A DNA stretch of 49,851 nt from an uncultured Desulfobacteraceae bacterium (lineage in GTDB: Bacteria > Desulfobacterota > Desulfobacteria > Desulfobacterales > CAZWAE01). Shown piece by piece: positions 35,069 through 48,968 of the stretch. The notes beneath the pieces were generated by a model that made no database searches, was not told where the DNA came from, and saw only the letters and a program-made list of their open reading frames with translations. The stretch covers positions 9,661 through 59,511 of the forward strand of contig CAZWAE010000004.1 of the NCBI GenBank assembly GCA_964631805.1, in the 5' to 3' direction. A program made the translations under genes and the position numbers. Each line of letters opens with the position of its first letter. The stretch's first letter is position 1.

Positions 35069-35704
35069 ATGACCATCGGCATCATTTACTGCGAAACATT
35101 GGCGAGCGAAATTGAGATACTTGCAGGGGAGATTCCCCAAATCGGTTGTCTTGAGAAAATGCCTTGGGACTTGCATATCGATCCGGAGAAACTCCTGAAC
35201 AAGGTGCGGGAAAAAATAGAGCACCTCCAGAACCGGGTCGACGTGATCATCCTGGGTTACGGCCGATGCCAGTCCCTTGGCCGGTTGGGAAGTGATTTCA
35301 AGGTACCGGTTCTTAGGCCGGACGCAGAGGACTGTATCGGGATTCTACTGGGACAGGAACGCTATAATGCGGAACTGGAAAACGAACCGGGAACCTGGTT
35401 TCTCTCTCCGGGATGGACGAAAATGGGAACCGATTTTGTATTTAGAGAGCTGCAAATCAGTCCTCTGGGTTATAAAAAGGAGATCGATCCGCTGCAGCTC
35501 GCCCGCCGCTTGTTGGAAGGATTCACACGTGCGCTTTACATCGATATGGAGCTGGGCCGCGATGGGGAAGATTTACCGGCCAGGGCTCGTTGCATTGCCG
35601 CCGACCTGGATTTGAGGCTGGAGAAAACCCGGGGCTCATATGCCGTATTGAATAATATCATAGAAAAAGCCCTGGCTCTTGACAGTGCAGGGCGGGACCG
35701 GTGA
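35069..35704 (+). CDS. DUF1638 domain-containing protein
   Basis: IIYCETL..EI, LHIDPEKL, ILGYGRC, EDCIGILLG, PGTWFLSPGW. Confidence 0.82.
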   Translation: MTIGIIYCETLASEIEILAGEIPQIGCLEKMPWDLHIDPEKLLNKVREKIEHLQNRVDVIILGYGRCQSLGRLGSDFKVPVLRPDAEDCIGILLGQERYNAELENEPGTWFLSPGWTKMGTDFVFRELQISPLGYKKEIDPLQLARRLLEGFTRALYIDMELGRDGEDLPARARCIAADLDLRLEKTRGSYAVLNNIIEKALALDSAGRDR

Positions 35705-35705
35705 A

Positions 35706-36485
35706 ATGGAAGAAAAAATCGTAAGAATAGCGGAGATGATCAAAGAGGGTGGCCGGAATATCGTCTTTACGGGGGCGGGCATATCCACCGAAAGCGGTAT
35801 TCCGGACTATCGCAGTCAGGGCGGTATCTGGGACCGATTCCGGCCGGTCTATTTCGACGAATTCATGTCCTTCAGAGAAGCCAGGGAGGAGTACTGGCGG
35901 CGATGGACGGAGCTCTACCGGGGCCTTCTTCAGGCCGACCCCAATCCCGCACACCGGGCGGTGGCCGAACTGTGCGACGCAGGACTTCTGGATGCGGTCA
36001 TTACCCAGAACGTAGACGGCCTTCATCAGGCTTCCGGCGTTCCCGATGACAAGATCATCGAACTGCACGGCAACACCCGGCGAATTCGTTGCATGCACTG
36101 CCAAAAGTTAACCTCCACAGAGGAAGTCTGGGAGCGTATGGCCGAGGGTGACAAAGCACCGGAATGCTCATGCGGCGGCTACCTGAAACCGGACACCATC
36201 TCTTTCGGCCAATCCATGCCTGTGGCAGAAGTGGAGAGGGCCGCAAAACTATCGAGTACCAGTGATTTCTTCATGGTGGTGGGGTCGACACTGCTGGTAC
36301 AGCCGGCGGCCCATATGCCCTTTTACGCCAAGAAAAATGATGCCCGGCTTGTGGTCGTCAACCTTTCCGAGACCCCTTGCGACGAGATCTGCGACGTTCT
36401 CATCCGGAAAGAGGCCGGGAAGGTGTTGCCCGCGATAGTCGAAAGTGTGAGGGCAAAAGGCGGGGGGCGCCGGGTTATGACCTAA
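35706..36485 (+). CDS. cobB: Sir2-family NAD-dependent protein deacylase
   Basis: FTGAGISTESGIPDYRS, ITQNVDGLHQ, ELHG, CxxC/CxC zinc sites, KPD, VGSTL.V.PAA. Confidence 0.88.
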   Translation: MEEKIVRIAEMIKEGGRNIVFTGAGISTESGIPDYRSQGGIWDRFRPVYFDEFMSFREAREEYWRRWTELYRGLLQADPNPAHRAVAELCDAGLLDAVITQNVDGLHQASGVPDDKIIELHGNTRRIRCMHCQKLTSTEEVWERMAEGDKAPECSCGGYLKPDTISFGQSMPVAEVERAAKLSSTSDFFMVVGSTLLVQPAAHMPFYAKKNDARLVVVNLSETPCDEICDVLIRKEAGKVLPAIVESVRAKGGGRRVMT

Positions 36486-36556
36486 GGTCCTCTTGGCTAT
36501 ATAAAATCCGGCCCGGGGGGCAGGGCTTTGGTTTGTTGGAATAAAACGGATTTGAA

Positions 36557-39085
36557 ATGACAGACCTTCCGGTTGAAACAATATTAGAAAAGTTAAGCGA
36601 CACCCTGCAAAAAACTCCCTGCGCCGTGCTGCAGGCACCGCCCGGGGCGGGCAAAACCACCCGGGTGCCGCTGGCTATATTGGAGCGGACGTGGCTGTCC
36701 GGCCGGCGGATTCTGATGCTGGAGCCGCGCCGGCTGGCCACCCGGGCTGCAGCGGCACGGATGGCGGCCAGCCTGGGGCAGCGGGTGGGCGAGACCGTGG
36801 GGTATCGCATGCGAATGGAGAGCCGGGTGTCTCCAAAAACCCGCATCGAGGTGTTGACCGAAGGGGTGCTCACTCGCCTGCTGCAGCGTGATCCGGGGCT
36901 TGAAGGGATCGGACTGGTGATTTTCGACGAGTTCCACGAACGCAGTCTGGCAGCGGATCTGTCTCTGTCCCTTTGCCTGGATATCCAGGGGGTTTTAAAT
37001 GAGTCCCTCCGTTTGCTGGTCATGTCTGCCACCCTGGATTCACAGCCTCTTTCACGGATAATGAACCATGCACCGGTGGTTTCATGCACCGGGAAACAGT
37101 TTGAAGTGGAAACCGTTTACATCGGACCCGGCCGGGCATCCACCCTGGCCCGGAATACGGCCGACACCATTTGCCGCGCTCTCAGGCGTTATTCCGGCAG
37201 CCTTCTTGTCTTTTTACCGGGTGCACCGGAAATTCGAAAGGTGCAGGGGATGCTTGAAAAATCGGATTTAGGTGCCGAGTGCCGGGTGGCCCCGCTTTTC
37301 GGCAACCTGACCCGGGCGGAGCAGCAGGCGGCTATCAATCCTTCTCCTGCAGGCCAGCGTAAAATCGTTTTGGCCACCGATATCGCAGAAACCAGCCTGA
37401 CCATCGAAGGAATCGAGGTGGTGGTTGACGGTGGCCATAGGCGGGCGCCCCTGTTCGATGTCTCCAGCGGCATGACCCGTCTGATGACCCTTCCGGTGTC
37501 CCGGGCTTCGGCCGATCAGCGTCGAGGCCGTGCCGGGCGGCTGGGGCCGGGAGTCTGCCTCAGGATGTGGGATCAAAACCGCCATCCGCTTCTGTCCCCA
37601 CACAACCGGCCCGAAATTCTGGAGACCGATCTCACGCCTTTTGCCTTGGAGCTGGCTGTGTGGGGGGTGAACCATCCCGGACAACTCAGGTGGCTTGACC
37701 CGCCGCCCGAGGCGGCTTTCCGCAGGGCCCGGCAGCTTTTGGGGGAACTGGGAGCGCTCGCTCCCCTTGACACCGGGCAGGAAACAGTGACCGAACATGG
37801 ACGGCAGATGGCGGAACTGGCCGTGCACCCGCGTTTGGCGCACATGCTTCTGATGGCACGTGAAGCGGGTGCCGGCGCCCCGGCCTGCCGGCTGGCGGCG
37901 TTGCTGGGCGAGCGCGATTTTATCCGGTTCAGGCCCGGCAGCCGGGACGCCGATCTGGGTTTGCGGCTGGAGGTGTTAGCGACAGTTGCTGCGGGCGCAA
38001 GGTTTGACCATGGGGAGCTTGACATCGATGCCGGCGTCTGCCGCCGAATTCTCAAAACCGCCGGGCTTCTTCAAAAAAGGTTGAAAACAAATTCAACTGC
38101 ATCGGACCGGGTCGATGCGGGGATGCTTCTGGCATGGGCATACCCCGACCGCATCGCCCGTCAGCGCAACGGTAGCCGGCGCCGTTACCTCATGACAAAT
38201 GGCAGGGGGGCTTGTTTTACTGATTACCAGCCCCTCTGCGCACAGACCCATCTGGTCGTGGCGGCTCTGGACGGGGACCGCCGGGAAGCCCGAATTTTCC
38301 TGGCGGCGGGCTACAACGAGGCGGATCTGCTGGAGCAATATGGAGACAAGATCCGGGAAGAGCAGCAGGTTCAATGGGATGCATCGACAAAGGCCGTTAC
38401 CGCCGTGAGGCTGCGAAAGCTGGGGGCCTTGACCCTTACGAAGGTCCGGATTGACGGATCGTCGGAGGACTTGCAGGTACAGGCGGCCATGGCGGACGGC
38501 ATCCGCCGGCAGGGACTCTCATGCCTGCCCTGGACCCGGCTGCTGCGAGCCTGGCAGGCGCGGGTGCTTTTTCTACGGCGTCTTCTCGGTGCCGGCGAGG
38601 GGTGGCCGGACCTCTCCGGCCAGGCCCTTATCGATACCCTCGAGATATGGCTGGGGCCCTATCTTGACGGCATCACACGGCTGAAACAACTCGGCGGCAT
38701 CGATCTGAAGAGCGCTTTGCAAGGCCATTTGAGCTGGCGCCGTCAACGCCTGCTGGACCGGCTGGCCCCGACGCACCTGGACCTGCCCAGCGGAGCCCGG
38801 GTGCCCATCGATTATCAGGTCGATCCCCCGACAGTATCCGTGCGTATTCAGCAGATGTTTGGTGAAACCCGGACGCCTGAGATCGCCGGCGGCCGGCAAC
38901 CTTTGCTGTTGCATCTCCTTTCCCCGGCTGGCCGGCCCATGCAGATCACCTCCGATCTGGCCGGTTTCTGGGAAGGCAGCTACAGCGACGTCAAAAAAGA
39001 CTTAAAAGCCCGCTACCCCAAACACCCCTGGCCGGACGACCCGCTCGCAGCCGCTCCCACCAATCGCGCCAAGCCGCGCTCTTGA
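36557..39085 (+). CDS. hrpB: ATP-dependent helicase HrpB
   Basis: APPGAGKTTRVPL, EPRRLA, DEFHERSL, MSATL, ATDIAETSLTI, QRRGRAGR, HrpB C-terminus LLSPAGRP.QIT.DL..FW...RYPKHPWPDDP. Confidence 0.95.
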   Translation: MTDLPVETILEKLSDTLQKTPCAVLQAPPGAGKTTRVPLAILERTWLSGRRILMLEPRRLATRAAAARMAASLGQRVGETVGYRMRMESRVSPKTRIEVLTEGVLTRLLQRDPGLEGIGLVIFDEFHERSLAADLSLSLCLDIQGVLNESLRLLVMSATLDSQPLSRIMNHAPVVSCTGKQFEVETVYIGPGRASTLARNTADTICRALRRYSGSLLVFLPGAPEIRKVQGMLEKSDLGAECRVAPLFGNLTRAEQQAAINPSPAGQRKIVLATDIAETSLTIEGIEVVVDGGHRRAPLFDVSSGMTRLMTLPVSRASADQRRGRAGRLGPGVCLRMWDQNRHPLLSPHNRPEILETDLTPFALELAVWGVNHPGQLRWLDPPPEAAFRRARQLLGELGALAPLDTGQETVTEHGRQMAELAVHPRLAHMLLMAREAGAGAPACRLAALLGERDFIRFRPGSRDADLGLRLEVLATVAAGARFDHGELDIDAGVCRRILKTAGLLQKRLKTNSTASDRVDAGMLLAWAYPDRIARQRNGSRRRYLMTNGRGACFTDYQPLCAQTHLVVAALDGDRREARIFLAAGYNEADLLEQYGDKIREEQQVQWDASTKAVTAVRLRKLGALTLTKVRIDGSSEDLQVQAAMADGIRRQGLSCLPWTRLLRAWQARVLFLRRLLGAGEGWPDLSGQALIDTLEIWLGPYLDGITRLKQLGGIDLKSALQGHLSWRRQRLLDRLAPTHLDLPSGARVPIDYQVDPPTVSVRIQQMFGETRTPEIAGGRQPLLLHLLSPAGRPMQITSDLAGFWEGSYSDVKKDLKARYPKHPWPDDPLAAAPTNRAKPRS

Positions 39086-39104
39086 AATCTGGTTACTTTT
39101 TCGG

Positions 39105-39332
39105 ATGGTCAGGAATCAATTTAAAAAACAACTGGAGAGGCGGCTCGAAAATCCACACGTGGAAACATCACGGCTCAGGGGCTACAGAAACCTTTACAAA
39201 ATAAAACTCATATCCCTGGGGTATCGACTAACCTATGTTGTCAAGGAAAATGAAATTACCATTTTTATCGTCAGTGTGAGACGTAGAGATAAGATCTACG
39301 AATTGCTGACAGACAAACTTCCTGATTCATAG
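39105..39332 (+). pseudogene. RelE/StbE-family toxin, apparently 5'-truncated, no adjacent antitoxin
   Basis: QFKKQLERRLENPHVETSRLRG...YKIKL..LGYRLTY.V...I.IVSVRRRD. It lacks the usual ~20 N-terminal residues and an RBS. Confidence 0.72.
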
Positions 39333-39421
39333 CGACGGGACGTGCACCTCCAGTTTCCCAACCAAAACAAATTGGTCGTAATTATTCAGTATCCTGATGA
39401 CGTGACAAAGGGTCTAACCAC

Positions 39422-40171
39422 TCAGCGGAAAAGCGGTTCCTGACCCTTCCAGGAATCGAATTCCCGGGGGAGTAGTTTCAGGATCTCTTTGCCCGACATG
39501 CTGAACAGGTCGTAGGTGACGTCCAACTGCTGGATGACGTGAATGAAACGGTGGAAGGTGCCGGGATTCTGTTTTCTCAGAAGCGTTCCCCGCTTGGGCC
39601 GGCGGGTTTTGGGATTGAAGTAGAGATGATGGGCTGCCTCGACCACCGATCGATTTTGGATGAGGCTCTGCCTTGCGAGAAGTTCATGGTGGAGCCGGCT
39701 CTCTTTCGACAGCGGCGTGTAAAGAAACAGGGCGGAAAGGTCCGGGCCCAACCCGTAAACGGAATAGACCAGGTAGGCGCCGCCCAACAGATGTCGATGT
39801 CCGGAACGGAAACCGGGTTCCAGGATGTGCCGGTAGTCCCGGCCGGGCTTTCGGTGGCCTTCGGCGTCCTTGGGACAGACCTGGTCGAAATAATAGAGGG
39901 ACATCCAGCTCCAGAGCCCCACGTCCGATTCGAGGCCTTCGAAGGCCGCCTCCCGGAACAACTCGTCCGCCGCCGCTGCAAAATCCAGGGCCGAGGCAAA
40001 CGTAAGCGGTTCCACCGACTTTTGAAAGCCGGCGGGCTCGGAGGTTTCCGGGTCCGTCAACAGGTCGTCGGGGCGCTCCATGACCGCGCCGCTACGCAAT
40101 GCTTCGAGATAGGAACGGAACCGGGCCACACCCGCCGCTGTCAGTCTTCGTATGTCGCAAGATGCATTCAT
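39422..40171 (-). CDS. Hypothetical protein (third gene of the GHKL cassette)
   Basis: 249-aa ORF with a 4-bp ATGA overlap with the upstream gene; LWSWMSLYYFDQVCP and HRHLLGG blocks. Confidence 0.8.
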   Translation of the reverse strand: MNASCDIRRLTAAGVARFRSYLEALRSGAVMERPDDLLTDPETSEPAGFQKSVEPLTFASALDFAAAADELFREAAFEGLESDVGLWSWMSLYYFDQVCPKDAEGHRKPGRDYRHILEPGFRSGHRHLLGGAYLVYSVYGLGPDLSALFLYTPLSKESRLHHELLARQSLIQNRSVVEAAHHLYFNPKTRRPKRGTLLRKQNPGTFHRFIHVIQQLDVTYDLFSMSGKEILKLLPREFDSWKGQEPLFR

Positions 40172-40929
40172 AGAACCTGGGTCACGGATTGGTTGAACAG
40201 TTCAAGGGCGTTGCACTGGGCACAGAAAACTTCCACCGCGGTTTCGATCCAGTCGACCTGTTCTGCCCTCGATGCCGTCGAGGGTGGACGCATTTCCGGA
40301 TAGGCGCACACCAGCTTCAGCCACTGACTCGGCCAGTCGTCATCGCAATCCGGATCGGTGTGCCGGTTCTCCAAAACAATGCGTTTGAGTATCTGCCGCA
40401 ACACTTCCGGATAGACCAGGGCCATGAAGCGGCTGTCGGTACCGGCAATGAGGCCGATCTCCGCCGCCCGGGTGTTCAGGCGCAGAACCGGCCAGTCTCC
40501 GTCCAGGTCAAGCTGCCAGATACGATGGCCCAGGTCCTCGTACTCCACGTACAGAAGCGACTGGCCGCCGATCTCCACATCGCCGACGCTGGCCGGTCGG
40601 ATTCGATCCAGGGCGGCAAGGATTCTGCCGCGGTGGGGATGTTTTCCCACCACCTTTACCCGGAACAAGGGGATAACGGTTTCGGGAAAACGATTCAGGT
40701 ACCGGTCGGCGGGCACCGACAGACGGAAGACAGTGCCGTAGGCATACCGCTGGTAGGAATAGCGATGGTAGGCTTCGACAAAAACCGATGCGTTTTCCGG
40801 AAGCCCGAGGCCATCAAATCCCAGGCGCATATTGAAAAAACGCCGGTTGTTCCCGTCCGCCAGGATATCCACCCGAACCCCGGACCGTCTTATTTTTTTA
40901 CGGCCGGTATAGTTCAGTTTTCGGATCAT
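40168..40929 (-). CDS. Hypothetical protein (second gene of the GHKL cassette)
   Basis: 253-aa ORF with an AAGGGGA RBS, 16 bp after the upstream stop; beta-rich N-half and helical C-half. Confidence 0.8.
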   Translation of the reverse strand: MIRKLNYTGRKKIRRSGVRVDILADGNNRRFFNMRLGFDGLGLPENASVFVEAYHRYSYQRYAYGTVFRLSVPADRYLNRFPETVIPLFRVKVVGKHPHRGRILAALDRIRPASVGDVEIGGQSLLYVEYEDLGHRIWQLDLDGDWPVLRLNTRAAEIGLIAGTDSRFMALVYPEVLRQILKRIVLENRHTDPDCDDDWPSQWLKLVCAYPEMRPPSTASRAEQVDWIETAVEVFCAQCNALELFNQSVTQVL

Positions 40930-40945
40930 ATAGACGTTCCCCTTT

Positions 40946-42838
40946 TCAGGGTGTTACCCGCACCCGGAGGTCCCGGTGCGGGTCGAATCCCGTTACCGTG
41001 ATCCTGAAATCGGTGTTCCGCACCCATAACTGGATGAGATTCAATTGCGCCATCACCAGCCTGGCTCCCCGGGTCTGCACCTTCAGCGGAGGGGCCGACA
41101 GATCGAAATCCAGCCGGGTGTATTGCTTAAAGGGGTTGCCGCTGCGAACCTCGTAGGCCATCCGAATCGTGACAATGGGCGGTACACGGCCATTGTCCGC
41201 CCTGGGAGTCAGGGCAAAGCCCCCTTTTATCTTCTGTATCTGAATGGTCGCCGTGGTGCCGCCGCCGGCATACGGAACGGCCGGTGACCGCGGCCCCTCT
41301 TCCTCGCCGGAACCGGGTTGGTCTCCCCGTGTCCCGGCACCTGGTTCGGTTGTGGGCAGGGCAAACAGATGGCGCAGGAGGTTCACATCGCGACCCTTCC
41401 GGGGCCGTGTGAGAATTTTAACGATCTCCCTGGGGCTGGATTTGATAAAGTCCAGCGTCGACGGACCCAGGCGGTATTTTCGTTTGAACTTCTTCGAGTT
41501 GCGCTCCCACTCCGTATGGGCAGGATTTTCCGCATCCCCGAGAAACCCGGACAACACCGGATCGGTAACCGAGACGATGGCTCGCATCCCTTTGTGCCGG
41601 AGTGAGGAGACCTCGGGGATGGTAATTCCCTGCCGAATGAAGTGGTCCTCGGCCCGGTCCAGTTTGTCATCGATCTCCACGAATACGAAAAATCCGGTCG
41701 GTAAAAAGTCCCTGGAATCCGCCTTCTGGATACTGACCGGCACATGAAACCCGACCCGCGCCCGGCTGTTGAAACGGTCCCGCAGCTCGGCGAGGGCTTC
41801 CGGGTCGAACAGGGCTTCGCGCAGTTTCGGCGCCCGTCCGGCAGAGGGGGCCTGTAAATGCGTTAACCGCTTTTTCTCCTGACGGATGGACCATCTGGCA
41901 AAATCGAGAAGTCCCCCCATATGCCGCCAGGCCGGGTTTTTCGATTTTTTGAAAAATTTCTCCAGAGTCAGGTCGTCCAGGCGGGTTGTTTTACCCGCCG
42001 ACCGGAATTCGACAATGAGACCGGCGGCCAGGATCGGATAAAAATAGTGGCGTACGGCGGAGACCAGGCAGTCGTTGTAGGTCACCTCCCGGTCCGGGAA
42101 GGGAATGAGAATACTCAGGCCCGGTTTCCGGTCACGATTCATGGCAAAGGTCACTGCAAATCGTGCCAGGAAATCGGTGTCTTCAACCGGGAGCGGCAAC
42201 CCGTTTTCCGCCACCCCGAAAAAGCCGTAGGGGGCATATCTGCGTCCGTCGAGTTTGTGAATCTTAAGGGCGGATTGGCCCATGAGCATCATACGCCCGT
42301 CATCTCTCCTCACGGTAATCCCAAGGATCGCGTTGATACGGGAAACCGCCTGAAAAACCGTTTTGCCGAGTCCCCACCGGCCAAGATCCGTACTGGTTTT
42401 TCGCGTACGCCCGATGTTGCGCCAGAAGTAGAAAAAATCATTCCGGGTCACATCATCGTCCAGGTCGTCGAACTGCCGGACGTCGCCCTGGAGACCCCGG
42501 GTATGGTAATCCTCGATGAGCAAGTGGCTGAAGGCTTCATCCTCAACCGGAATATCCTGTAAACCGGAATGACTGCTGAGAAGATGGGGAAAAAGCCCAT
42601 CGAGGTACTGCCTGCGGGCCGTGTCGGCTTCCGGCGTCGCCGGCCCGGAAAAAGAGAACCGGACCGTGACAGGCCCCTCCCCGCTTCCCGCATCCAGGGA
42701 ATTCTGGATCGCCTCCCGTACCAGGGCATCGGTTACACTGCCGATGGCCTCGGTCGTGAAAAACTCCTCTTCTATGGGGTCGATGTTGATTTCACCGGGA
42801 TTCATTTCCCGGAATCGCCATCGGGCGTCAAACGGCAT
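40946..42838 (-). CDS. Divergent GHKL (Hsp90/MORC-like) ATPase domain protein
   Basis: N-box LVREAIQNSLDA, G1-like IEDYHTRGL, G2 GRWGLGK, G3-like KPGLSILIP; later AENPAHTEW. Confidence 0.8.
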   Translation of the reverse strand: MPFDARWRFREMNPGEINIDPIEEEFFTTEAIGSVTDALVREAIQNSLDAGSGEGPVTVRFSFSGPATPEADTARRQYLDGLFPHLLSSHSGLQDIPVEDEAFSHLLIEDYHTRGLQGDVRQFDDLDDDVTRNDFFYFWRNIGRTRKTSTDLGRWGLGKTVFQAVSRINAILGITVRRDDGRMMLMGQSALKIHKLDGRRYAPYGFFGVAENGLPLPVEDTDFLARFAVTFAMNRDRKPGLSILIPFPDREVTYNDCLVSAVRHYFYPILAAGLIVEFRSAGKTTRLDDLTLEKFFKKSKNPAWRHMGGLLDFARWSIRQEKKRLTHLQAPSAGRAPKLREALFDPEALAELRDRFNSRARVGFHVPVSIQKADSRDFLPTGFFVFVEIDDKLDRAEDHFIRQGITIPEVSSLRHKGMRAIVSVTDPVLSGFLGDAENPAHTEWERNSKKFKRKYRLGPSTLDFIKSSPREIVKILTRPRKGRDVNLLRHLFALPTTEPGAGTRGDQPGSGEEEGPRSPAVPYAGGGTTATIQIQKIKGGFALTPRADNGRVPPIVTIRMAYEVRSGNPFKQYTRLDFDLSAPPLKVQTRGARLVMAQLNLIQLWVRNTDFRITVTGFDPHRDLRVRVTP

Positions 42839-43415
42839 ACAAACGGTCCTTTCAAATAAGGAGGCTCAACCGGCGGTCCGGTTATTCCTGAATTCCATCA
42901 CGGGTGTTCTCCTTCGATCTCCCAGGTATTGGCCGGTGACGACAACCTTCCCTCATTTCTTCCTTTTTTTAGACCCGTTATCAGAAACATCCACTTTATT
43001 ACGTGGATGTTTCTGACACCTACGGGTCTTATCCAGCTCTACCGGGTTGGTTGGAAAAACAACCGGAACGCAGATGGGGCCGGGTCGATGCTGTAGGCTT
43101 ATGCAATATAAACGACTCCCGAAAAGAATACAATCTTGCCAGGTGTTTTTCAGCGATTTTCGGTGAACAGTCCCATCTCGTTTCAACAGATGCCCAATGG
43201 TCGATTTTCAAAATGCCATTCGCGAACCGGAGATTTACCGGAACTTGACTATGTCTATTGGTATACCTAATTATCGGTGATAACTGACTCAGGAATTGAT
43301 CCAGTCGTAAAAAGTTAAGAAAATTCGTACAGCCATATGACGCGTTTCGGGAAAATGTATGCGCTACACATTACTTATAACGCCCGTGAATGCGACTCTT
43401 TGCGAAATGATCCGG

Positions 43416-43804
43416 ATGCCATATGACTGTGGTGACTACCTGATTGCACGACCCGATGAGGTCGCAGGGGAAAGCACTGTCTGGTACGCATCGTTTTGGG
43501 ATTTCTGCGCCGTTTATTTGAGACAGCGCTTCGGGACGAACTATTGCCTTTCGCTAGGGCAATCCCTGCTGCTTCACATGGGTATATCCATCCAAACATG
43601 GACGGTAACGGCCGCATGGGCCGATTTGTCATGAACGTCATGATGGCCGCCGGCGGGTTTCCCTGGACGGTCATACCGGTTGAAAACCGCGATGATTATA
43701 TGGATGCCCTAGAAAGCGCCAGCGTCAGGCAGGACATCTCGCCGTTTGCCCGTTTTCTTGCAGGCCTGCTTCAAGAGCCGATATCAAATAGTGCTGACCG
43801 ATAA
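43416..43804 (+). pseudogene. Fic-family protein relic with a large internal deletion
   Basis: N-terminal block RPDEVAGESTVWYASFWDFCAVYLRQRFG..YCLS..QSLLLH is joined out of frame to the C-terminal Fic motif YIHPNMDGNGRMGRF...RDDYMDALESAS. Confidence 0.8.
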
Positions 43805-43942
43805 ATAGCAGGGGAAGGGGTTTGAACCGTCCAATTGCTGTGTGTCGCCCAAGGGGTGGATTTTCATACAGCATGGGTATGGGGTAGTATGCCAAGGACA
43901 GCGTACAGCAAATCAGGCATTATAATTAATGTCAATGTGTAG

Positions 43943-43976
43943 TGACCCTCATGTTTTTCTGACTCTCATGTTTTTC
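43943..43976 (+). repeat. 17-bp tandem duplication TGAC(C/T)CTCATGTTTTTC
   Basis: Two adjacent copies with one mismatch at the start of an AT-richer segment. Confidence 0.6.
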
Positions 43977-44127
43977 AATCTTGTTTGTTTTGTCCGGGAT
44001 TCTCCGGAATATGCAGCCTAACAATTTTCAGCCTGTTACATTCAAGAACCAGCTAAAGTTGGGCACCGAATAGCCAATAATAAAGTAAGTTTGTTACTAT
44101 CATGTTGTGATTAAAAGGCCTATCATT

Positions 44128-44358
44128 ATGAGCTCCAAAACCGTTCTGGTAGTTGAGGACAGTAATTTTATTGCCCGAGCTATTGCATTGCGTATTCAAA
44201 GAGATCTCGGGCACGAAGTGGTGATCGCCGATTCCTTTGCGGTTACTTCGGAGCTTTTTCAAAACCCAAAGTTTTCACCGTTTGCAGCGATCGTCGATTT
44301 GGTACTTCCTGATGCAGAAGAGGGTCAGAAATACAACGATCCATTTTTTGAAACTTAA
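44128..44358 (+). pseudogene. Truncated response-regulator receiver domain
   Basis: KTVLVVEDS...AAIVDLVLPDAEEG, then it stops at about 76 aa, before the conserved T/K half. Confidence 0.68.
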
Positions 44359-44369
44359 GGGAGGAGTTC

Positions 44370-45410
44370 ATGAAGTGCAAGAAGATACAGACAATGACCC
44401 TTCAGCTGTTTTTGATAATAATGATAACTGGGTTGACATCCTTGGCGGCAGCCGGTGATGTCAAAAAAGTCATTCTGATAGAAACAATGCCGGTTCCGTC
44501 AGTCTTAACACATTCTCGATGGTTTCAATTTCAACTGAAACAGATGGGATTTGAACGAAGTAAAAATTTAAAATTGACAATCTTAGAAGCTAACGGTGAT
44601 AGACAGCTGGCTGAAAAACTTTTGAAGACTGAATTGGCTGGGGGAAATCCGGATTTGGTCGTAACGATTGCGACCCTTGCTTCACAAACAGCTGTAAAAC
44701 TGCTTAAAGACACAGATGTCCCAATCCTGTTTTTTCAGGTCTCCGATCCAGTTGGTGCGGGTTTGGTGAAACAGATTAATGCGCCGACTGAAACAAATAT
44801 AACCGGAAAGGTGTTCACTGTTAACAGAGATGCTAAAATCGAGATGCTTTTTCAACTTGTGAACCAGATAGCTGCCCATCGGCCGGTTCGATTCGGTTAC
44901 ATTCACTCAACTTACCCCTCTTCTCTCGGAGATATAAGAGAGTTAAAATCGGTTGCGAAAAGGCGCGGAGATGTTCATTTTGTATCCTATGAGATCGAAT
45001 ACAGAAATGTCCCGGAAGGTTTGCCTGCTATGATCGACGACACAAAAAAGGGAATTAAAGCGCTGGAAGGAAAAGTCGACTTTTGGGTAGAACCTTCAGG
45101 TCCTTTGGGAGAATCCTTTGAATATACGCAGACGATACTTAAAAACTCGACCATTCCAATTGCATTTGGGGCCAAGCTGGAAAGTGTGAAAAGGGGCGCT
45201 CTAATGCATGTTACACCGAACATGGAAGCAAGTGGCCGAGAAGCCGCCCGGCTGGCGGGTGCAATACTCAGAGGGAAAAATCCTGGAACGATTCCGGTAA
45301 CCCCGCCCTCAAACTTTGACCTGGGGATTAATATAACAACGGCCCTAAAACTAAAAATCGTTATACATCCTGATCTCCTTCAACTTGCTGGCAAAAATGT
45401 ATACAGATAA
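44370..45410 (+). CDS. ABC_sub_bind-type periplasmic binding protein (orphan, paired with a sensor)
   Basis: Signal peptide; PDLVVTIATLAS, VSDPVGAGLV, NITG, GREAARLA..IL.G.NPGTIPV, INITTA.KL; GGAGG RBS. Confidence 0.85.
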   Translation: MKCKKIQTMTLQLFLIIMITGLTSLAAAGDVKKVILIETMPVPSVLTHSRWFQFQLKQMGFERSKNLKLTILEANGDRQLAEKLLKTELAGGNPDLVVTIATLASQTAVKLLKDTDVPILFFQVSDPVGAGLVKQINAPTETNITGKVFTVNRDAKIEMLFQLVNQIAAHRPVRFGYIHSTYPSSLGDIRELKSVAKRRGDVHFVSYEIEYRNVPEGLPAMIDDTKKGIKALEGKVDFWVEPSGPLGESFEYTQTILKNSTIPIAFGAKLESVKRGALMHVTPNMEASGREAARLAGAILRGKNPGTIPVTPPSNFDLGINITTALKLKIVIHPDLLQLAGKNVYR

Positions 45411-45421
45411 GTTAGGAAACG

Positions 45422-46942
45422 ATGAAGATTCAGACTAAAATCGGATTGGGCCTCCTTCCTTTAGTTTTATTATCCATCACCGTTTTGGGATCGTGGTCTA
45501 TTCGTATTACCACTAACGGAATTGAGAAGTCTGCTTTTCAACATATGAATACCCTTTTAGACTCTTATGTGGACGACAAAATCAGAGATCCGCATCGTTT
45601 GCTGGTCAGAAATCTACTGGATAACGAAGAATCATTTATCACGGATTATCAGAGACTTGCTGCCAAATCGGCAGAAGAGTTGGAATTGACTAAAACCGGT
45701 CATATTTTTGTCTTGAATGCAGATGGGAAATTCGTTTTCGGCAACAAAAAAATTGACCCCCGATTGATAGAATCCGTATGGGGAAAACATTCGGTCAGCA
45801 TAGCAGATGGAACTGCAGCCAAGTTAACAGGGCATCATCATGCTTTAAACACCGGCGCTGTTTATGCCGCACGCTATTTTGAACCTTGGGAATGGGTCAT
45901 TTTTTATGCCACGGCAGACGATGGGATTCTTGCGGCTAAACAGGCGATTCGAAATGTAACCATTCTGATAGCCGTTTTTTGCGCAGCTACTTCATGGCTG
46001 CTTATTTTCTTTGTAATTCGCAATTTTCTTATCAGGCCGGTAGGAATCCTCCAAAATGCAGCTTCAAAAATTGCCAAGGGGGAAACAATCACCAACATTG
46101 ATGTCAATTCCCAGGATGAACTTGGAGAATTAACCCGCAACATGGAGTTTATGGCCAAAGCCATTCAGGAACATCAAGCCGAACAAAAGGTGTGGCAAGA
46201 AAAGCTTGAAACGAAAGTAAAAGAACAAACCAAACATTTGACAAAAGAAATTGATGAACGCAAGCAGGTTGATAAGGCGTTGCACGAAAGCGAGAGATTT
46301 CTTTCTGCGGTTTTTGATTCGATTCAGGACGGTATCAGCGTTCTCGACAATGAAATGAAGGTTGTTCGCGTGAATCAAGCTATGCGAGACTGGTATGCTT
46401 ACGCGCTTCCCTTGGAAGGAAAGCGATGTTATGAAGTGTATCATGGACGCGAAAAAGCATGCGATGTTTGTCCGGTCCTTCGCTCGACCCAAACCGGAAA
46501 AATTGAAATGAACGAGGTTCCGCTTATTCAGCAGGATGGCACTCCCGGCACACTGGAACTTTTTGCGTTTCCAATGCTTGACGATTCTACCCAGGTCGTA
46601 GGCGTCGTAGAATATGTCCGTAACATCACAAAACGCAAGCATGGTGAAGTGGCGTTACGCGAAAGTGAGCGCATGAAAGGTGTGCTTGAAATGGCTGGTG
46701 CCGTGTGCCATGAGCTGAATCAACCGCTTATGGCAATTGCTGGATATTCAGATTTAATGTCTATGAAACTATCAAAAGATGACCCTCTATTAGAAAAAAT
46801 TACCAGAATTACCGAACAGAGTGATCGGTTAAAAAAAATTACTCAGAAACTCATGAATATCACGAGATATGAAACAAAAGATTACCTTAAAGGTAAAATA
46901 ATTGATATCGAGAAATCATCCAATGGTAGTATCATTAATTAG
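45422..46942 (+). CDS. Membrane sensor Cache-HAMP-PAS-HisKA lacking the HATPase_c domain
   Basis: Two TMs, YFEPWEW, HAMP (DELGELTRNMEFM), PAS with CYEVYHGREKACDVCP, H-box CHELNQPL, protein ends about 65 aa later. Confidence 0.85.
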   Translation: MKIQTKIGLGLLPLVLLSITVLGSWSIRITTNGIEKSAFQHMNTLLDSYVDDKIRDPHRLLVRNLLDNEESFITDYQRLAAKSAEELELTKTGHIFVLNADGKFVFGNKKIDPRLIESVWGKHSVSIADGTAAKLTGHHHALNTGAVYAARYFEPWEWVIFYATADDGILAAKQAIRNVTILIAVFCAATSWLLIFFVIRNFLIRPVGILQNAASKIAKGETITNIDVNSQDELGELTRNMEFMAKAIQEHQAEQKVWQEKLETKVKEQTKHLTKEIDERKQVDKALHESERFLSAVFDSIQDGISVLDNEMKVVRVNQAMRDWYAYALPLEGKRCYEVYHGREKACDVCPVLRSTQTGKIEMNEVPLIQQDGTPGTLELFAFPMLDDSTQVVGVVEYVRNITKRKHGEVALRESERMKGVLEMAGAVCHELNQPLMAIAGYSDLMSMKLSKDDPLLEKITRITEQSDRLKKITQKLMNITRYETKDYLKGKIIDIEKSSNGSIIN

Positions 46943-47012
46943 TTATGCAGGGTGTCAGCACAAAAGGCTACGTAACGGCTACAAATATCCAACCATCAGA
47001 GCCTTTGTCTCT

Positions 47013-47112
47013 TTTCAATTGGTCAACACTTGACTTTCAATTGGTCGTCGTATAGTTTTCAATCAGTCGTATCGGAAAATTCAGTTAAACAGCAGTCATC
47101 TTTCAAGCAGTC
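47013..47112 (+). repeat. Five 12-bp direct repeats at an exact 22-bp period upstream of the AAA/DUF4143 gene
   Basis: TTTCAATTGGTC 47013, TTTCAATTGGTC 47035, TTTCAATCAGTC 47057, ATTCAGTTAAAC 47079 (degenerate), TTTCAAGCAGTC 47101. Confidence 0.8.
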
Positions 47113-47137
47113 AAAAAAAGGACGGAGTATTCCCTGC

Positions 47138-48358
47138 ATGTACCCACGATTTGTTGAACAGCAAATTAAAGAAGCCCTTGACGATACTCGGGTCGTCCTG
47201 CTCACCGGTCCGAGGCAAGCTGGAAAAACGACATTAGTTCAGCGCCTCGCCGGGAACAATATGCCCTTTTTCACTCTGGATAATGCAACCACTCTTGATG
47301 CCGCAAAAAGAGATCCGGTTGGGTTTATCCGAAATCTGGACCGGGCCATTATTGATGAAGTCCAGCGGGTCCCCGAGCTCCTGCTGGCGATCAAGGAGAG
47401 TGTGGACAATGACCAGCGTCCCGGTCGTTTTATTTTAACCGGGTCGGCAAATTTGATGACACTGCCGCGGATTGCCGACTCCCTGGCTGGGCGCATGGAG
47501 ATGGTCCATCTGTTCCCTCTGGCCCAAGGTGAAATTCAAGGCGTGAAGCCAACATTTCTGGATAATGTGATGAAGGGTGAAGTACCTGAGGTGCGCACCC
47601 CAATCATTGCCGACAAGTTGTTGGAAATCGTCCTGGCCGGAGGATTTCCCGAGGCGATCAAGCGGAAGACCTGGAAACGACGTCAGAACTGGCATCTCAA
47701 CTACATAGACGCCCTGATCCATCGTGATGTCAAGGATATCGCACAAATTGATAAAATTCAGCAGCTGCATGCCTTGCTGCAAATGGTCTCCCACTATAAC
47801 GGCCAGCTTGTCAACTACTCCGGCATCGGTGCCCCTTTGGATATGAGCCACACCATAACGCGAAAATATCTTGGCATCCTTGCGCAGCTTTTTTTGATCC
47901 ACAAATTGAATCCCTGGTACTCCAACCAATTAAAGCGCCTTACCAAAACCCCCAAGCTACATTTTGTAGATACCGGACTGCTGGCAGCACTCCAGGGCCT
48001 TTCCATCGGTAAGCTGCAAACCGATCGTCAATTATTCGGGCCGATGCTTGAAACCTTCGTTTTGACGGAACTCTTGAAACTTGAAAGCTGGAGTGGAGAC
48101 CGACTGGAGTTCTCACATTACCGCGACAAGGAAAAAAATGAGGTCGATATCATCATACGTAATCGAAGCGGATTCACCGCCGGCATTGAGGTAAAGGCAT
48201 CGGCAACCGTCACCACAGCAGACTTCAAAGGATTGAACAAGCTCGCAGCGGCCTGTAAAGACAGGTTTTCAATAGGTCTTGTGTTATACGATCACGACAA
48301 AATGATTCCGTTTGGAGACCGGCTGTATGCCGCACCCGTATCAGCGATCTGGCACTGA
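47138..48358 (+). CDS. AAA_14 ATPase with DUF4143 domain
   Basis: MYPR start after GGAG; GPRQAGKTT, IIDEVQR, LTGSAN, SLAGR, GGFPE, KTPKLHFVDTG, YRDKEKNEVD..IEVKAS. Confidence 0.92.
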   Translation: MYPRFVEQQIKEALDDTRVVLLTGPRQAGKTTLVQRLAGNNMPFFTLDNATTLDAAKRDPVGFIRNLDRAIIDEVQRVPELLLAIKESVDNDQRPGRFILTGSANLMTLPRIADSLAGRMEMVHLFPLAQGEIQGVKPTFLDNVMKGEVPEVRTPIIADKLLEIVLAGGFPEAIKRKTWKRRQNWHLNYIDALIHRDVKDIAQIDKIQQLHALLQMVSHYNGQLVNYSGIGAPLDMSHTITRKYLGILAQLFLIHKLNPWYSNQLKRLTKTPKLHFVDTGLLAALQGLSIGKLQTDRQLFGPMLETFVLTELLKLESWSGDRLEFSHYRDKEKNEVDIIIRNRSGFTAGIEVKASATVTTADFKGLNKLAAACKDRFSIGLVLYDHDKMIPFGDRLYAAPVSAIWH

Positions 48359-48370
48359 GAAATGACTTTC

Positions 48371-48405
48371 AAAAGAAAAAACGGGAAAGCTTGTCAGCTA
48401 ACCCG
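48371..48405 (-). terminator. Rho-independent terminator-like hairpin (minus strand)
   Basis: Minus strand CGGGTTAGCT-GACA-AGCTTTCCCG followed by TTTTTTCTTTT. Confidence 0.5.
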
Positions 48406-48425
48406 CCTTAATTATATTAAATTAT

Positions 48426-48450
48426 TGGTCGGGACGATCCCTTGAACCCC
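48426..48450 (-). other. Degenerate tRNA-Pro-like 3' end fragment (possible att-site relic)
   Basis: Minus strand GGGGTTCAAGGGATCGTCCCGACCA resembles T-loop GGTTCAA plus the tRNA-Pro acceptor end CGTCCCGACCA, followed by an AT-rich spacer and terminator. Confidence 0.5.
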
Positions 48451-48696
48451 ATATCGGACGAATGGTATTCTCCAACCCTCTGAAAACACATAAGTATTTA
48501 ATATCTCCCATTCCTTCCGTATAAACAAAACAAGCAATAGTAGTCACATTTAAAACACGAGTCGCAGGATTAGATGGTTTTCAATGATATCTTAAATTTC
48601 CAATTTCATTTATGCATAGTTTGAGATATTGACAAAGTGCTGTTATTTGTACTATAAAAAGCTCAATTAAAAGGTTCTATTGGAATAGGGGGATCT

Positions 48697-48951: not shown

Positions 48952-48968
48952 AGAATGACCCCGCCTTC

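What the first reader, a model, noticed from the sequence alone, without database searches (positions are those of the whole stretch)
39422..42838. Three-gene GHKL/MORC-like ATPase cassette: candidate undescribed anti-phage system
Seen: a tight minus-strand operon of 630, 253 and 249 aa (16-bp gap, then ATGA overlap). Gene 1 has Bergerat-fold motifs (REAIQNSLDA, EDYHTRGL, GRWGLGK) but none of the other MutL, gyrase, Hsp90 or kinase domains. Genes 2 and 3 have no recognisable domain; gene 3 has RDYRH and RSGHRH (R-x4-H) basic/His motifs that could be a nuclease site. The cassette is flanked by a RelE relic and a Fic relic. Established: prokaryotic MORC-type GHKL ATPases occur in restriction and defence operons. 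Inference: an ATPase + adaptor + effector defence system. Genes 1-2 may be related to Azaca-type components, but the cassette has no helicase or methylase.
Basis: partly seen in the sequence, partly recalled or inferred. Interest (0 to 1): 0.82.

Follow-up and report, generated by a model that had tools for sequence, protein, structure and literature searches.

The report
Three-gene GHL-ATPase cassette, probable defence module
A real, widely conserved three-gene operon (a gyrase/Hsp90/MutL-type ATPase, a bridging protein and a protein with no known fold) that is a distant, uncatalogued cousin of an untested candidate phage-defence system called PDC-M33.

Summary
Three minus-strand ORFs of 630, 253 and 249 aa lie at 39422-42838, with a 16-nt gap and then an ATGA overlap.

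- **Conservation:** the trio keeps this order in 77 of 80 fetched loci from about eight bacterial phyla and one archaeon. No fourth gene is conserved, and its spread is patchy (2 of 41 genomes of its order).
- **Gene 1:** a true GHKL ATPase with an S5-type transducer. Motifs I-IV are conserved, and the AlphaFold model matches SMCHD1, GRP94, Topo VI-B, MutL and MORC about equally. A C-terminal beta-sandwich follows.
- **Gene 3:** folds confidently (pLDDT 93) but matches no solved structure. It is a remote homologue of Pfam DUF6339.
- **Relation to PDC-M33:** genes 1 and 3 are profile-level homologues of PADLOC candidates PDC-M33A and PDC-M33C. Gene 2 and the gene-1 C-terminal domain show no similarity to their M33 counterparts.
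- **Complex model:** gene 2 is predicted to bridge the gene-1 C-terminal domain and gene 3.

Defence is plausible but untested. PDC-M33 is itself untested, and the link to restriction-modification genes is modest (C5 methylase beside 6 of 80 loci). The nuclease and Azaca ideas are not supported. This copy carries His at a near-invariant motif-II glycine.

The parts
40946..42838 (-). Gene 1 (A), 630 aa: GHL-type ATPase (GHKL domain, S5-like transducer, disordered linker, C-terminal beta-sandwich)
   Evidence: ORF. AF2 model pLDDT 81.6, pTM 0.72. Fold matches. PADLOC PDC-M33A E 1.6e-16 over residues 5-279. hhalign against an M33A alignment: probability 99.9%, E 6e-33, columns 8-487.
41969..42802 (-). 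GHKL (Bergerat) ATP-binding domain, about residues 13-290. Motif I is E42/N46/D49. Motif II is D110-x-G112(H here)-x-x-G115. Motif III is G153-R-W-G-L-G-K159. Motif IV is T175.
   Evidence: Column counts over 71 family members: E42 70/71, N46 71/71, D110 71/71, G112 68/71, G153-K159 71/71, T175 66/71. HtpG, sacsin and Hsp90 N-domains align to residues 3-290.
42503..42505 (-). Codon of His112, at the first glycine of motif II (DxGxxG). The position is Gly in 68 of 71 relatives.
   Evidence: The same letters stand in contigs of runs from two studies: X2 and X3 (study P1) and X5 (study P2), with no difference listed at this place.
41369..41968 (-). Transducer region, about residues 291-490: helical insert, S5-like beta/alpha domain, and the invariant motif G434-D-A-E437-N-P439-A-H441-T-E-W444
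   Evidence: MutL, MORC3, Topo VI-B, GRP94 and SMCHD1 align through to about residue 480-492. Motif invariance. E-x-P-x-H-x-x-W is also kept in the PDC-M33A consensus.
40949..41272 (-). C-terminal beta-sandwich, about residues 523-630. Predicted docking site for the N-terminal strand of gene 2.
   Evidence: AF2 strands 532-629. Only weak matches (tombusvirus P domains, Z about 7). Not aligned to PDC-M33A. Predicted contacts: gene 1 residues 623-627 with gene 2 residues 2-5. R622 and D623 are invariant.
40930..40945 (-). 16-nt spacer between genes 1 and 2, with a Shine-Dalgarno-like AAAGGGGA
   Evidence: Sequence.
40168..40929 (-). Gene 2 (B), 253 aa: family-specific bridging protein with no known domain. 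N-terminus MIRKLNYTGRKK has M1, R3, N6, T8 and R10 invariant.
   Evidence: ORF. No Pfam, NCBIfam, PADLOC or PDB match. 2147 cluster representatives at E <= 1e-3. Invariant columns. No similarity to PDC-M33B (hhalign E 0.86). Complex model ipSAE 0.69 against best control 0.31.
39422..40171 (-). Gene 3 (C), 249 aa: mostly helical protein, remote DUF6339/PDC-M33C homologue, with no match among solved structures
   Evidence: ORF. AF2 pLDDT 93.4, pTM 0.89. Foldseek PDB best E 1.3. VIA-wide best Z 4.3. BFVD best E 2.2. hhalign against M33C: probability 94.5%, E 7.8e-8, 229 columns. Invariant residues W87, W89, P100, H127, R167, Y184, R208, Q215, D221, E237.
42839..43358 (-). Non-coding leader upstream of gene 1 (presumed promoter region, not shown), with a perfect hairpin at about 42980-43018
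   Evidence: Sequence. The consensus scan found no convincing minus-strand sigma-70 promoter here.

Best explanation
The cassette is a three-protein machine of the PDC-M33 type and most likely an accessory immunity (anti-phage or anti-mobile-DNA) module. Gene 1 is a GHL ATPase. By analogy with MutL, Hsp90, Topo VI-B and MORC, it would dimerise through its N-terminal GHKL domains on ATP binding and act as a clamp or switch. Gene 2 is a bridge: its invariant N-terminal strand docks on the C-terminal beta-sandwich of gene 1, and its body holds gene 3 at a conserved surface around D221 and R167. Gene 3 is a DUF6339-like protein of unknown fold and would be the output or sensor subunit. Shown here: the ORFs; conservation of the trio; the GHKL motifs and fold; remote homology of genes 1 and 3 to PDC-M33A and PDC-M33C; the absence of a known fold for gene 3. 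Modelled only: the A-B-C contacts. Inferred: dimeric clamp action, a DNA target, and defence function. This genome's copy has His at motif-II Gly112, so its ATPase may be weakened.
For: Conserved module: genes 2 and 3 follow gene 1 in 79 and 77 of 80 loci from Desulfobacterota, Gamma- and Betaproteobacteria, Nitrospirota, Nitrospinota, Planctomycetota, Acidobacteriota, Myxococcota and one Methanoregula bin. No neighbour family is shared by more than 6 loci. Accessory spread: 2 of 41 genomes of the same order. Decayed copies exist: in-frame stops in gene 1 in 4 of 76 copies, an IS256/Mutator transposase inside gene 2 in L037, and a deletion fusing genes 2 and 3 in L016. ATPase: motifs I-IV are invariant or nearly so. 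Foldseek gives Topo VI-B E 2.7e-10, GyrB about 1e-7 and Hsp90 about 5e-7. VIA gives Z 15.3 to 13.3 for SMCHD1, GRP94, Topo VI-B, MutL and MORC3 over residues 13 to about 490. Kinship with PDC-M33: bona fide M33 trios (Arthrobacter plasmid, a 6-kb virome contig, and 34 of 79 examined loci (77 metagenome loci plus L091 and L092)) have the same A-B-C order and sizes. hhalign gives gene 1 vs M33A 99.9% and gene 3 vs M33C 94.5%; the cross-pair controls are null. PDC systems were proposed from embedding in BREX, DISARM and type I RM loci (passages read). Context: C5 DNA methylases only 25-32% identical to each other lie within 1.3 kb in 6 of 80 loci from five lineages (3 Planctomycetota loci, Myxococcota, Syntrophorhabdus, Methanoregula). 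Vsr accompanies them in 3 loci and a full EcoRII enzyme in L073. PLD-SNF2 helicases occur in 3 loci. The Arthrobacter M33 locus sits between dcm-vsr-REase, a HEPN protein and Shedu. The window copy lies between ParE and Fic fragments. Complex: ipSAE 0.69 (three runs 0.68-0.70) against best control 0.31. That mark was reached by 58 of 80 solved complexes and 2 of 110 mismatched pairs. The runs agree in at least 47% of contacts and the partner's pLDDT is at least 77. The interface residues coincide with invariant columns: gene 2 R3, N6, E52, K92; gene 1 R622, D623; gene 3 R167, D221.
Against: No member of this family or of PDC-M33 has been tested, so defence rests on association only. The association is modest. 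Of 235 nearest neighbours scanned, most are housekeeping (NUDIX, radical SAM, PAS kinases, TPR, oxidoreductases). In PADLOC no family matched more than 3 of 118 neighbours. There was no neighbourhood background control, and related loci are not independent. Gene 1 relatives are almost absent from plasmids (2 of 72,556 records) and phages (1 of 50,697), and genes of the gene 3 or DUF6339 type were not found in viral contigs with the patterns used. Gene 2 was not folded. Gene 3 has no recognisable catalytic fold, so no effector chemistry is identified. Its conserved residues partly lie in the predicted interface and may be structural. The complex job differed from its calibration (three chains, own alignments, gene 1 cut to 290-630). 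His112 in this copy may mean a weakened ATPase.
Confidence: 0.55

Rival explanations
1. An accessory DNA-maintenance or repair module rather than immunity. A MutL-, MORC- or SMCHD1-like clamp would act on the cell's own DNA (repair of deaminated or methylated cytosine, compaction, recombination control), with genes 2 and 3 as specific cofactors.
For: Structural matches to MutL (Z 14.0), SMCHD1 (15.3) and MORC3 (13.3) are as good as any other. Recurrent neighbours include Vsr and C5 methylase, which are also a repair pair. Most neighbours are housekeeping genes. The window copy lies beside an HrpB helicase and a Sir2 deacetylase.
Against: Present in only 2 of 41 genomes of the order. Contexts are variable with no syntenic anchor. 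Copies are frequently broken. The M33 sister family sits in clear defence islands. L073 has a complete EcoRII restriction-modification system, not just dcm-vsr.
Confidence: 0.15
2. An Hsp90-like chaperone system. Gene 1 would be a specialised Hsp90/HtpG-type ATPase, with genes 2 and 3 as co-chaperone and client.
For: GRP94 (Z 14.8), HtpG (13.0) and TRAP1 (12.0) are among the best structural matches. The N-M-C three-part layout with a C-terminal domain resembles Hsp90.
Against: No Hsp90 Pfam or NCBIfam model matches. The Hsp90 matches are not better than those to topoisomerase or MutL. The rare, patchy distribution and the links to restriction-modification genes do not suggest proteostasis.
Confidence: 0.07
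3. The system type is functional, but this genome's copy is a decaying relic. The ATPase is crippled by G112H, in a locus that also holds broken ParE and Fic genes.
For: Gly at motif II position 112 in 68 of 71 relatives, His only here. The flanking toxin genes are fragments. Other copies of the family are visibly broken.
Against: All three ORFs are intact, with preserved translational coupling. Every other invariant residue is kept. The His codon is stable in contigs from two studies. Two other relatives tolerate Thr or Asn at this position.
Confidence: 0.2

Closest known systems
PDC-M33 (PADLOC-DB v2 phage defence candidate; models PDLC04582-04587; untested)
   Same: Three genes in the same order and of the same sizes (about 630, 250-290 and 250 aa). 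The A proteins are homologous over the GHKL and transducer region (hhalign 99.9%, E 6e-33), including the E-x-P-x-H-x-x-W motif. The C proteins are remotely homologous over their full length (94.5%, E 7.8e-8), sharing D..LW..L and RH motifs.
   Different: PADLOC models do not call the system. A matches only residues 5-279 (E 1.6e-16), and B and C do not match at all. Pfam DUF6339 does not match gene 3. Gene 2 has no detectable similarity to M33B, and the gene 1 C-terminal domain is not aligned to M33A. Gene 1 has an extra helical insert at about residues 302-381.
GHL ATPases (MutL, Hsp90/GRP94, Topo VI-B, GyrB/ParE, MORC, SMCHD1)
   Same: Bergerat fold with motifs I-IV, followed by an S5-type transducer. 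Z 12-15 over about 280-316 aligned residues.
   Different: No sequence model of any of these families matches. The C-terminal beta-sandwich and both partner proteins are unlike theirs. No Toprim/5Y-CAP (Top6A) partner was identified.
GHKL-based defence proteins: Shedu type I-D / paraMORC3 (VcSduA) and Tiamat
   Same: An N-terminal GHKL/GHL ATPase coupled to an output module. ATPase-dead mutants of VcSduA (E27A) and Tiamat (E44A) lose defence (PMC12137116, passages read; bioRxiv 10.64898/2026.09.30.754977, passages read).
   Different: Those are single polypeptides with a recognisable nuclease (DUF4263 PD-(D/E)xK; the Tiamat C-terminal nuclease). Here the output is on separate proteins with no recognisable nuclease fold, and no PADLOC Shedu or Tiamat model matched.
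Pfam DUF6339 (PF19866)
   Same: Gene 3 aligns over its full length to an alignment of DUF6339/M33C proteins. Length (about 250 aa) and position (third gene after a GHL ATPase) are the same.
   Different: 12% identity. The Pfam model finds nothing in the window's genome. A narrower 40-sequence DUF6339 alignment gave only 42% probability.

Membership tests
GHKL (Bergerat-fold) ATPase superfamily | Motif I (ExxxNxxD), motif II (DxGxxG), motif III (GxxGxG), motif IV (T) | tested here: met
   E42 70/71, N46 71/71, D49 71/71, D110 71/71, G115 71/71, G153-K159 71/71, T175 66/71 across the family. The window copy has H at G112 (68/71 Gly).
GHKL (Bergerat-fold) ATPase superfamily | Bergerat alpha/beta sandwich fold | tested here: met
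   AF2 model pLDDT 81.6. Foldseek gives 231 PDB matches at E <= 0.001, all the listed ones GHKL proteins. VIA Z 10-15.
GHL subclass (gyrase/Hsp90/MutL/MORC type) | S5 domain-2-like transducer directly after the ATPase domain | tested here: met
   MutL N-terminal domain, MORC3, Topo VI-B, GRP94 and SMCHD1 align from about residue 13 to 475-492.
MORC / paraMORC | Specific sequence or structure affinity to MORC over other GHL families | tested here: inconclusive
   No Pfam hit at E <= 1. MORC3 Z 13.3 and MORC2 Z 11.9 lie within the tie with SMCHD1, GRP94, Topo VI-B and MutL.
Topoisomerase VI (B subunit with an A subunit partner) | Partner with 5Y-CAP and Toprim domains (Top6A/Spo11-like) | tested here: inconclusive
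   Topo VI-B is the top Foldseek match. The gene 3 model matches no solved chain above Z 4.3.
PDC-M33 (PADLOC candidate) | A protein matches model PDLC04582 along its length | tested here: not met
   Only residues 5-279 match, E 1.6e-16. True members match about 4-622 of 627 at E 1e-82 to 1e-96. Profile-profile homology does extend to residue 487.
PDC-M33 (PADLOC candidate) | B protein matches PDLC04583 | tested here: not met
   No hit at E <= 1. hhalign against a 29-sequence M33B alignment gives E 0.86.
PDC-M33 (PADLOC candidate) | C protein matches PDLC04584-87 / Pfam DUF6339 | tested here: not met
   No PADLOC or Pfam hit. There is remote homology only: hhalign 94.5%, E 7.8e-8.
PDC-M33 (PADLOC candidate) | A-B-C gene order, co-directional and tightly spaced | tested here: met
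Azaca (ZacABC) | Match to the ZacA, ZacB or ZacC models | tested here: not met
   The PADLOC scan at E <= 1 gave only PDC-M33A for gene 1 and nothing for genes 2 and 3.
Anti-phage defence system (functional class) | Experimental protection against phage | not testable with these tools
   No paper holds 'PDC-M33' or 'DUF6339'. PDCs are described as untested.
Anti-phage defence system (functional class) | Enrichment next to known defence genes | tested here: inconclusive
   C5 methylase in 6 of 80 loci, Vsr in 3, EcoRII in 1, PLD-SNF2 in 3. Most of the 235 neighbours are housekeeping, and no background control was run.

The most novel reading that the evidence does not exclude
The A-B-C cassettes (this family plus PDC-M33) are a new class of GHL-ATPase immune machine. 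An ATP-driven clamp of the topoisomerase VI-B / MutL type is coupled, through an exchangeable adaptor that plugs into an exchangeable C-terminal domain, to a DUF6339-type subunit. That subunit would have a fold absent from the PDB and carry a new DNA-directed activity, using the invariant W87, W89, R126-H127, Y184 and R208 that lie outside the predicted interface. Gene 1's own invariant E-x-P-x-H-x-x-W motif would be a second functional site.
Probability: 0.15. Interest if true: 0.85.

Novelty: new variant of a known kind. Interest (0 to 1): 0.55.

Why it matters
GHL ATPases (MORC, paraMORC/Shedu, Tiamat) are only now emerging as immune components, and in those systems the effector is a recognisable nuclease fused to the ATPase. 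Here the ATPase core is kept across two deeply diverged families (this one and PDC-M33), while the adaptor and the ATPase C-terminal domain appear to have been exchanged together. The third subunit is a confidently folded protein with no structural relative.

If it is defensive, it adds a widespread family that current detectors miss. At least 199 of 185,579 species' genomes carry it in a pattern-limited scan, and the gene 2 family has more than 2,000 sequence clusters. It would also give DUF6339 a context and offer a modular clamp-adaptor-output design to dissect.

If it is not defensive, it is still an uncharacterised, conserved GHL machine.

Tried and rejected
- **Sequence and profile searches against the PDB.** These gave nothing usable for genes 1, 2 or 3. 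The best hits were E 0.1-0.9 chance matches.
- **ESM Atlas.** Gene 3 gave no lead (best score 0.77). Gene 2 found only its own unnamed clusters (0.97-0.98). No structure search was possible for either.
- **Are genes 2 and 3 paralogues?** No. hhalign probability was 1.7%.
- **Tyrosine-recombinase or topoisomerase-like idea for gene 3** (from R107, R126-H127, R167, Y184). There is no structural support, and R167 lies in the predicted interface. I keep it only inside the novel reading.
- **Split Top6A idea for genes 2 and 3.** Untested for gene 2 and unsupported for gene 3.
- **Folding genes 2 and 3 together.** I tried to use the natural L016 deletion fusion (P0122, 411 aa) with a block alignment. 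MAFFT laid the gene 3 rows on the gene 2 part (A6). A second try with the fusion reference repeated 20 times also failed (A7). Both alignments were abandoned and never folded, so gene 2 has no structure model.
- **Fused forms of gene 3.** The search for longer forms found one protein (P0121, 523 aa). Its C-terminal repeats look AP2-like to me, but Pfam AP2 gives only E 4.3e-4, below the family cut-off. This is a weak hint of DNA association, not evidence.
- **Mobile-element carriage.** Plasmids 2 of 72,556 records and phages 1 of 50,697 for gene 1. Viral contigs gave none for the gene 3 or DUF6339 alignments with the patterns used.
- **Expression.** No RNA holder was listed. The contigs laid say nothing about expression.
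- **tRNA or integration-site search.** No tRNA in the window. The promoter and terminator scan was no better than shuffles.
- **Literature.** 'PDC-M33' 0 papers. 'DUF6339' 0 papers. The GHKL/defence, paraMORC and Hsp90-like searches turned up no description of this trio.

Full report
**1. Observation**

The three minus-strand ORFs are exactly as reported: 40946-42838 (630 aa), 40168-40929 (253 aa) and 39422-40171 (249 aa). The gene 1 stop is followed by a 16-nt spacer carrying AAAGGGGA before the gene 2 ATG. Genes 2 and 3 overlap in ATGA. The quoted motifs are present.

The flanks are a ParE/RelE-superfamily fragment (Pfam E 4.6e-7) and a Fic fragment (E 3.9e-5). Further upstream are an HrpB helicase and a Sir2 deacetylase. 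Downstream are an ABC substrate-binding protein and a sensor kinase.

**2. Is it a unit?**

Gene 1 has more than 1,166 database relatives, all unnamed. A pattern scan of one genome per species found 199 relatives, and the best 80 loci were fetched.

- In those 80 loci gene 2 follows gene 1 in 79 and gene 3 follows in 77, always in the order 1-2-3 on one strand.
- Two of the gene 3 misses (L012, L071) are contig ends. L066 is a truncated copy.
- The carriers span Desulfobacterota, Gamma- and Betaproteobacteria, Nitrospirota, Nitrospinota, Planctomycetota, Acidobacteriota, Myxococcota and one Methanoregula bin.
- Clustering 684 flanking ORFs found no neighbour family shared by more than 6 loci. 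The module is therefore three genes, self-contained, in variable contexts.
- Within the window's own order only 2 of 41 genomes have gene 1.
- Broken copies occur. Gene 1 has in-frame stops in 4 of 76 copies. An IS256/Mutator transposase sits inside gene 2 in L037. An in-frame deletion fuses genes 2 and 3 in L016.
- The gene 2 family alone has 2,147 representatives at 50% identity.

**3. Gene 1**

Pfam, NCBIfam and PDB sequence or profile searches are blank. The AlphaFold model from 71 sequences (pLDDT 81.6) is clear.

- Foldseek puts Topo VI-B first (E 2.7e-10), then GyrB/ParE and Hsp90.
- The exhaustive aligner gives SMCHD1 Z 15.3, GRP94 14.8, Topo VI-B 14.3, MutL 14.0 and MORC3 13.3, all over residues about 13-490.
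- This is the two-domain GHL module (Bergerat fold plus S5-type transducer), and the matches are tied. 'MORC-like' is therefore no more apt than 'MutL-like' or 'Hsp90-like'.
- Motifs I-IV are invariant or nearly so in 71 relatives.
- After a disordered linker (492-529) comes a beta-sandwich (about 523-630) with only weak, generic matches (Z about 7).
- A further invariant motif, GDAENPAHTEW (434-444), lies in the transducer.

This genome's copy has His at Gly112, the first glycine of motif II, which is Gly in 68 of 71 relatives. The same letters are seen in contigs of runs from two studies. It is therefore a real variant, possibly one that weakens the ATPase.

**4. Gene 3**

No family matches. 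The model is very confident (pLDDT 93.4, pTM 0.89) and mostly helical. It matches nothing:

- Foldseek against the PDB: best E 1.3.
- Exhaustive aligner: best Z 4.3 on a 66-residue sub-bundle, below that tool's stated noise level.
- Viral models: best E 2.2.

No nuclease fold is recognisable.

**5. Link to a catalogued candidate**

PADLOC matched gene 1 residues 5-279 to PDC-M33A (E 1.6e-16) and nothing else. Distant tblastn hits of gene 1 led to three further loci:

- An Arthrobacter agilis plasmid and a 6-kb virome contig carry genes of 628-662, 287-295 and about 251 aa. These match PDC-M33A, B and C along their length, and C is Pfam DUF6339.
- A Rhizobium megaplasmid trio is a distant member of the present family. 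hhalign gives gene 2 97.7% and gene 3 99.6%.

Of the 80 metagenome loci fetched with a DUF6339 alignment, 77 gave a DUF6339 ORF; with L091 and L092 that makes 79 loci examined, and 34 of them showed the full A-B-C trio, most of the rest being short contigs. Profile-profile comparison against alignments built from these trios gave:

| Comparison | Probability | E-value | Extent |
|---|---|---|---|
| Gene 1 vs M33A | 99.9% | 6e-33 | columns 8-487 |
| Gene 3 vs M33C | 94.5% | 7.8e-8 | 229 columns, full length |
| Gene 2 vs M33B | about 0% | 0.86 | none |
| Cross-pair controls | null | | |

The gene 3 / M33C alignment shares D..LW..L and RH motifs. The gene 1 C-terminal domain is not aligned to M33A. 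The E-x-P-x-H-x-x-W motif is shared by both A families. A narrower DUF6339 alignment had given only 42% for gene 3, so the gene 3 link is probable rather than certain.

The cassette is thus a deep sister of PDC-M33. The ATPase core and the third protein are kept. The adaptor and the ATPase C-terminal domain are replaced or diverged beyond recognition.

PDC systems are 145 untested candidates inferred from embedding in BREX, DISARM and type I RM loci (bioRxiv 10.1101/2024.01.29.577857; passages read). M33 is not named in the main text, and the supplements are closed.

**6. Assembly**

I ran a three-chain complex job with gene 1 residues 290-630, gene 3, and gene 2 as the scored partner.

- ipSAE was 0.69 (runs 0.68-0.70) against a best control of 0.31.
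- That mark was reached by 58 of 80 solved complexes and 2 of 110 mismatched pairs.
- The runs agree in at least 47% of contacts, and the partner's pLDDT is at least 77.
- The job differs from its calibration (three chains, my own alignments).

In the model, gene 2 residues 2-5 pair with gene 1 strand 623-627. Gene 2 residues 50-54, 92-94 and 100-103 hold gene 3 residues 218-225 and 165-172.

These are the invariant positions of all three families: gene 2 R3, N6, T8, E52 and K92; gene 1 R622 and D623; gene 3 R167 and D221. This supports a bridging role for gene 2. It also fits the apparent joint replacement of gene 2 and the gene 1 C-terminal domain relative to M33. It is a model, not a measurement.

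**7. Context**

I scanned 235 nearest neighbours (two per side; 118 and 117).

- Most are housekeeping genes.
- Restriction or defence signatures recur: ResIII 4 of 118 and 2 of 117; N6_Mtase 2 of 118; Eco57I 2 of 118; C5 DNA_methylase 5 of 117; Vsr 3 of 117; SNF2 2 of 117; PIN 2 of 117.
- The commonest neighbour family overall is C5 methylase. It occurs in 6 of 80 loci from five lineages (3 Planctomycetota loci, Myxococcota, Syntrophorhabdus, Methanoregula), at varying positions and orientations. The methylases are only 25-32% identical to each other, so the associations are independent.
- L073 has a full EcoRII-Dcm-Vsr system. L030 and L037 have PLD-SNF2 helicases.
- In PADLOC no family matched more than 3 of 118 neighbours.

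The association with defence genes is therefore real but modest. I ran no background control.

**8. Reading**

The best-supported reading is an accessory GHL-ATPase machine of the PDC-M33 type, most likely defensive. In it an ATP-driven clamp or switch (A) is coupled through an adaptor (B) to a DUF6339-like subunit (C).

- Confidence that this is a conserved three-protein module with a GHL ATPase: above 0.95.
- Confidence that it is a defence system: about 0.55.
- The proposed clamp-adaptor-output mechanism is an inference from family behaviour plus one complex model.

The rival readings are a repair or chromatin role, an Hsp90-like chaperone, and a decaying copy in this particular genome. None is excluded.

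**9. Novelty**

No paper in the searched library mentions PDC-M33 or DUF6339. The GHKL/defence, paraMORC and Hsp90-like searches found no description of this trio.

Noticed in passing
window 42503-42505 (gene 1 codon 112): His replaces the near-invariant first glycine of GHKL motif II (Gly in 68 of 71 relatives). The same letters appear in contigs of runs from two studies.
   Followed up: yes
window 41507-41539 (gene 1 residues 434-444): The invariant motif GDAENPAHTEW lies in the transducer region. Its E-x-P-x-H-x-x-W core is also kept in the PDC-M33A consensus. It could be a second functional site or a switch; its function is unknown.
   Followed up: partly
window 40900-40929 and 40141-40171 (N-termini of genes 2 and 3): Both small proteins start with a similar (I/L)R(K/R)L(N/T)xxG motif. 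In the complex model the gene 2 copy adds a strand to the gene 1 C-terminal beta-sandwich. Gene 3's copy might dock in the same way on a second protomer, but this was not tested.
   Followed up: partly
window 42980-43018: A perfect inverted repeat of about 15 bp (GTCAGAAACATCCAC / GTGGATGTTTCTGA, 8-nt loop) lies in the 520-bp leader upstream of gene 1. It could be an operator or a terminator of the neighbouring fragment.
   Followed up: no
window 39105-39332 and 43496-43804: Truncated ParE-family toxin (75 aa, lacks the first quarter of the profile) and a Fic fragment (only the core 22 residues match) bracket the cassette. No antitoxin ORFs were looked for.
   Followed up: partly
window 35679-39085: A Sir2-family deacetylase (268 aa) and an HrpB helicase (842 aa) lie immediately upstream. 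They are probably housekeeping and are not conserved beside the cassette elsewhere.
   Followed up: partly
window 36000-49000: There is a sharp G+C step: 59-63% at 36-39 kb, 54-59% over the cassette and 42-48% from 43 kb on. This suggests a mosaic region.
   Followed up: no
P0121 (523 aa): A single gene 3-like protein (32% identity over residues 1-248) is fused to three C-terminal repeats that look AP2-like. Pfam AP2 reaches only E 4.3e-4, below its cut-off. Its genomic context could not be fetched.
   Followed up: partly
L037:8890-11717; L016:6932-9831: Natural disruptions of the cassette: an IS256/Mutator transposase inserted in gene 2 (L037), and an in-frame deletion joining gene 2 residues 1 to about 236 to gene 3 residues about 78-242, with an N-terminally shortened gene 1 (L016).
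   Followed up: yes
L054, L062, L063, L064, L073, L080 (flanks of the cassette): Unrelated C5 DNA methylases (25-32% identical to each other) lie within 1.3 kb of the cassette, with Vsr in three loci and EcoRII in L073. In L064 the methylase is 41 nt upstream in the same orientation. The Arthrobacter PDC-M33 locus also has dcm-vsr-REase.
   Followed up: partly
L092 (MT837792.1, 6.2-kb 'Bacteriophage sp.' contig): A complete PDC-M33 trio fills half of an unverified virome contig. Whether the contig is viral or bacterial carry-over was not examined.
   Followed up: no
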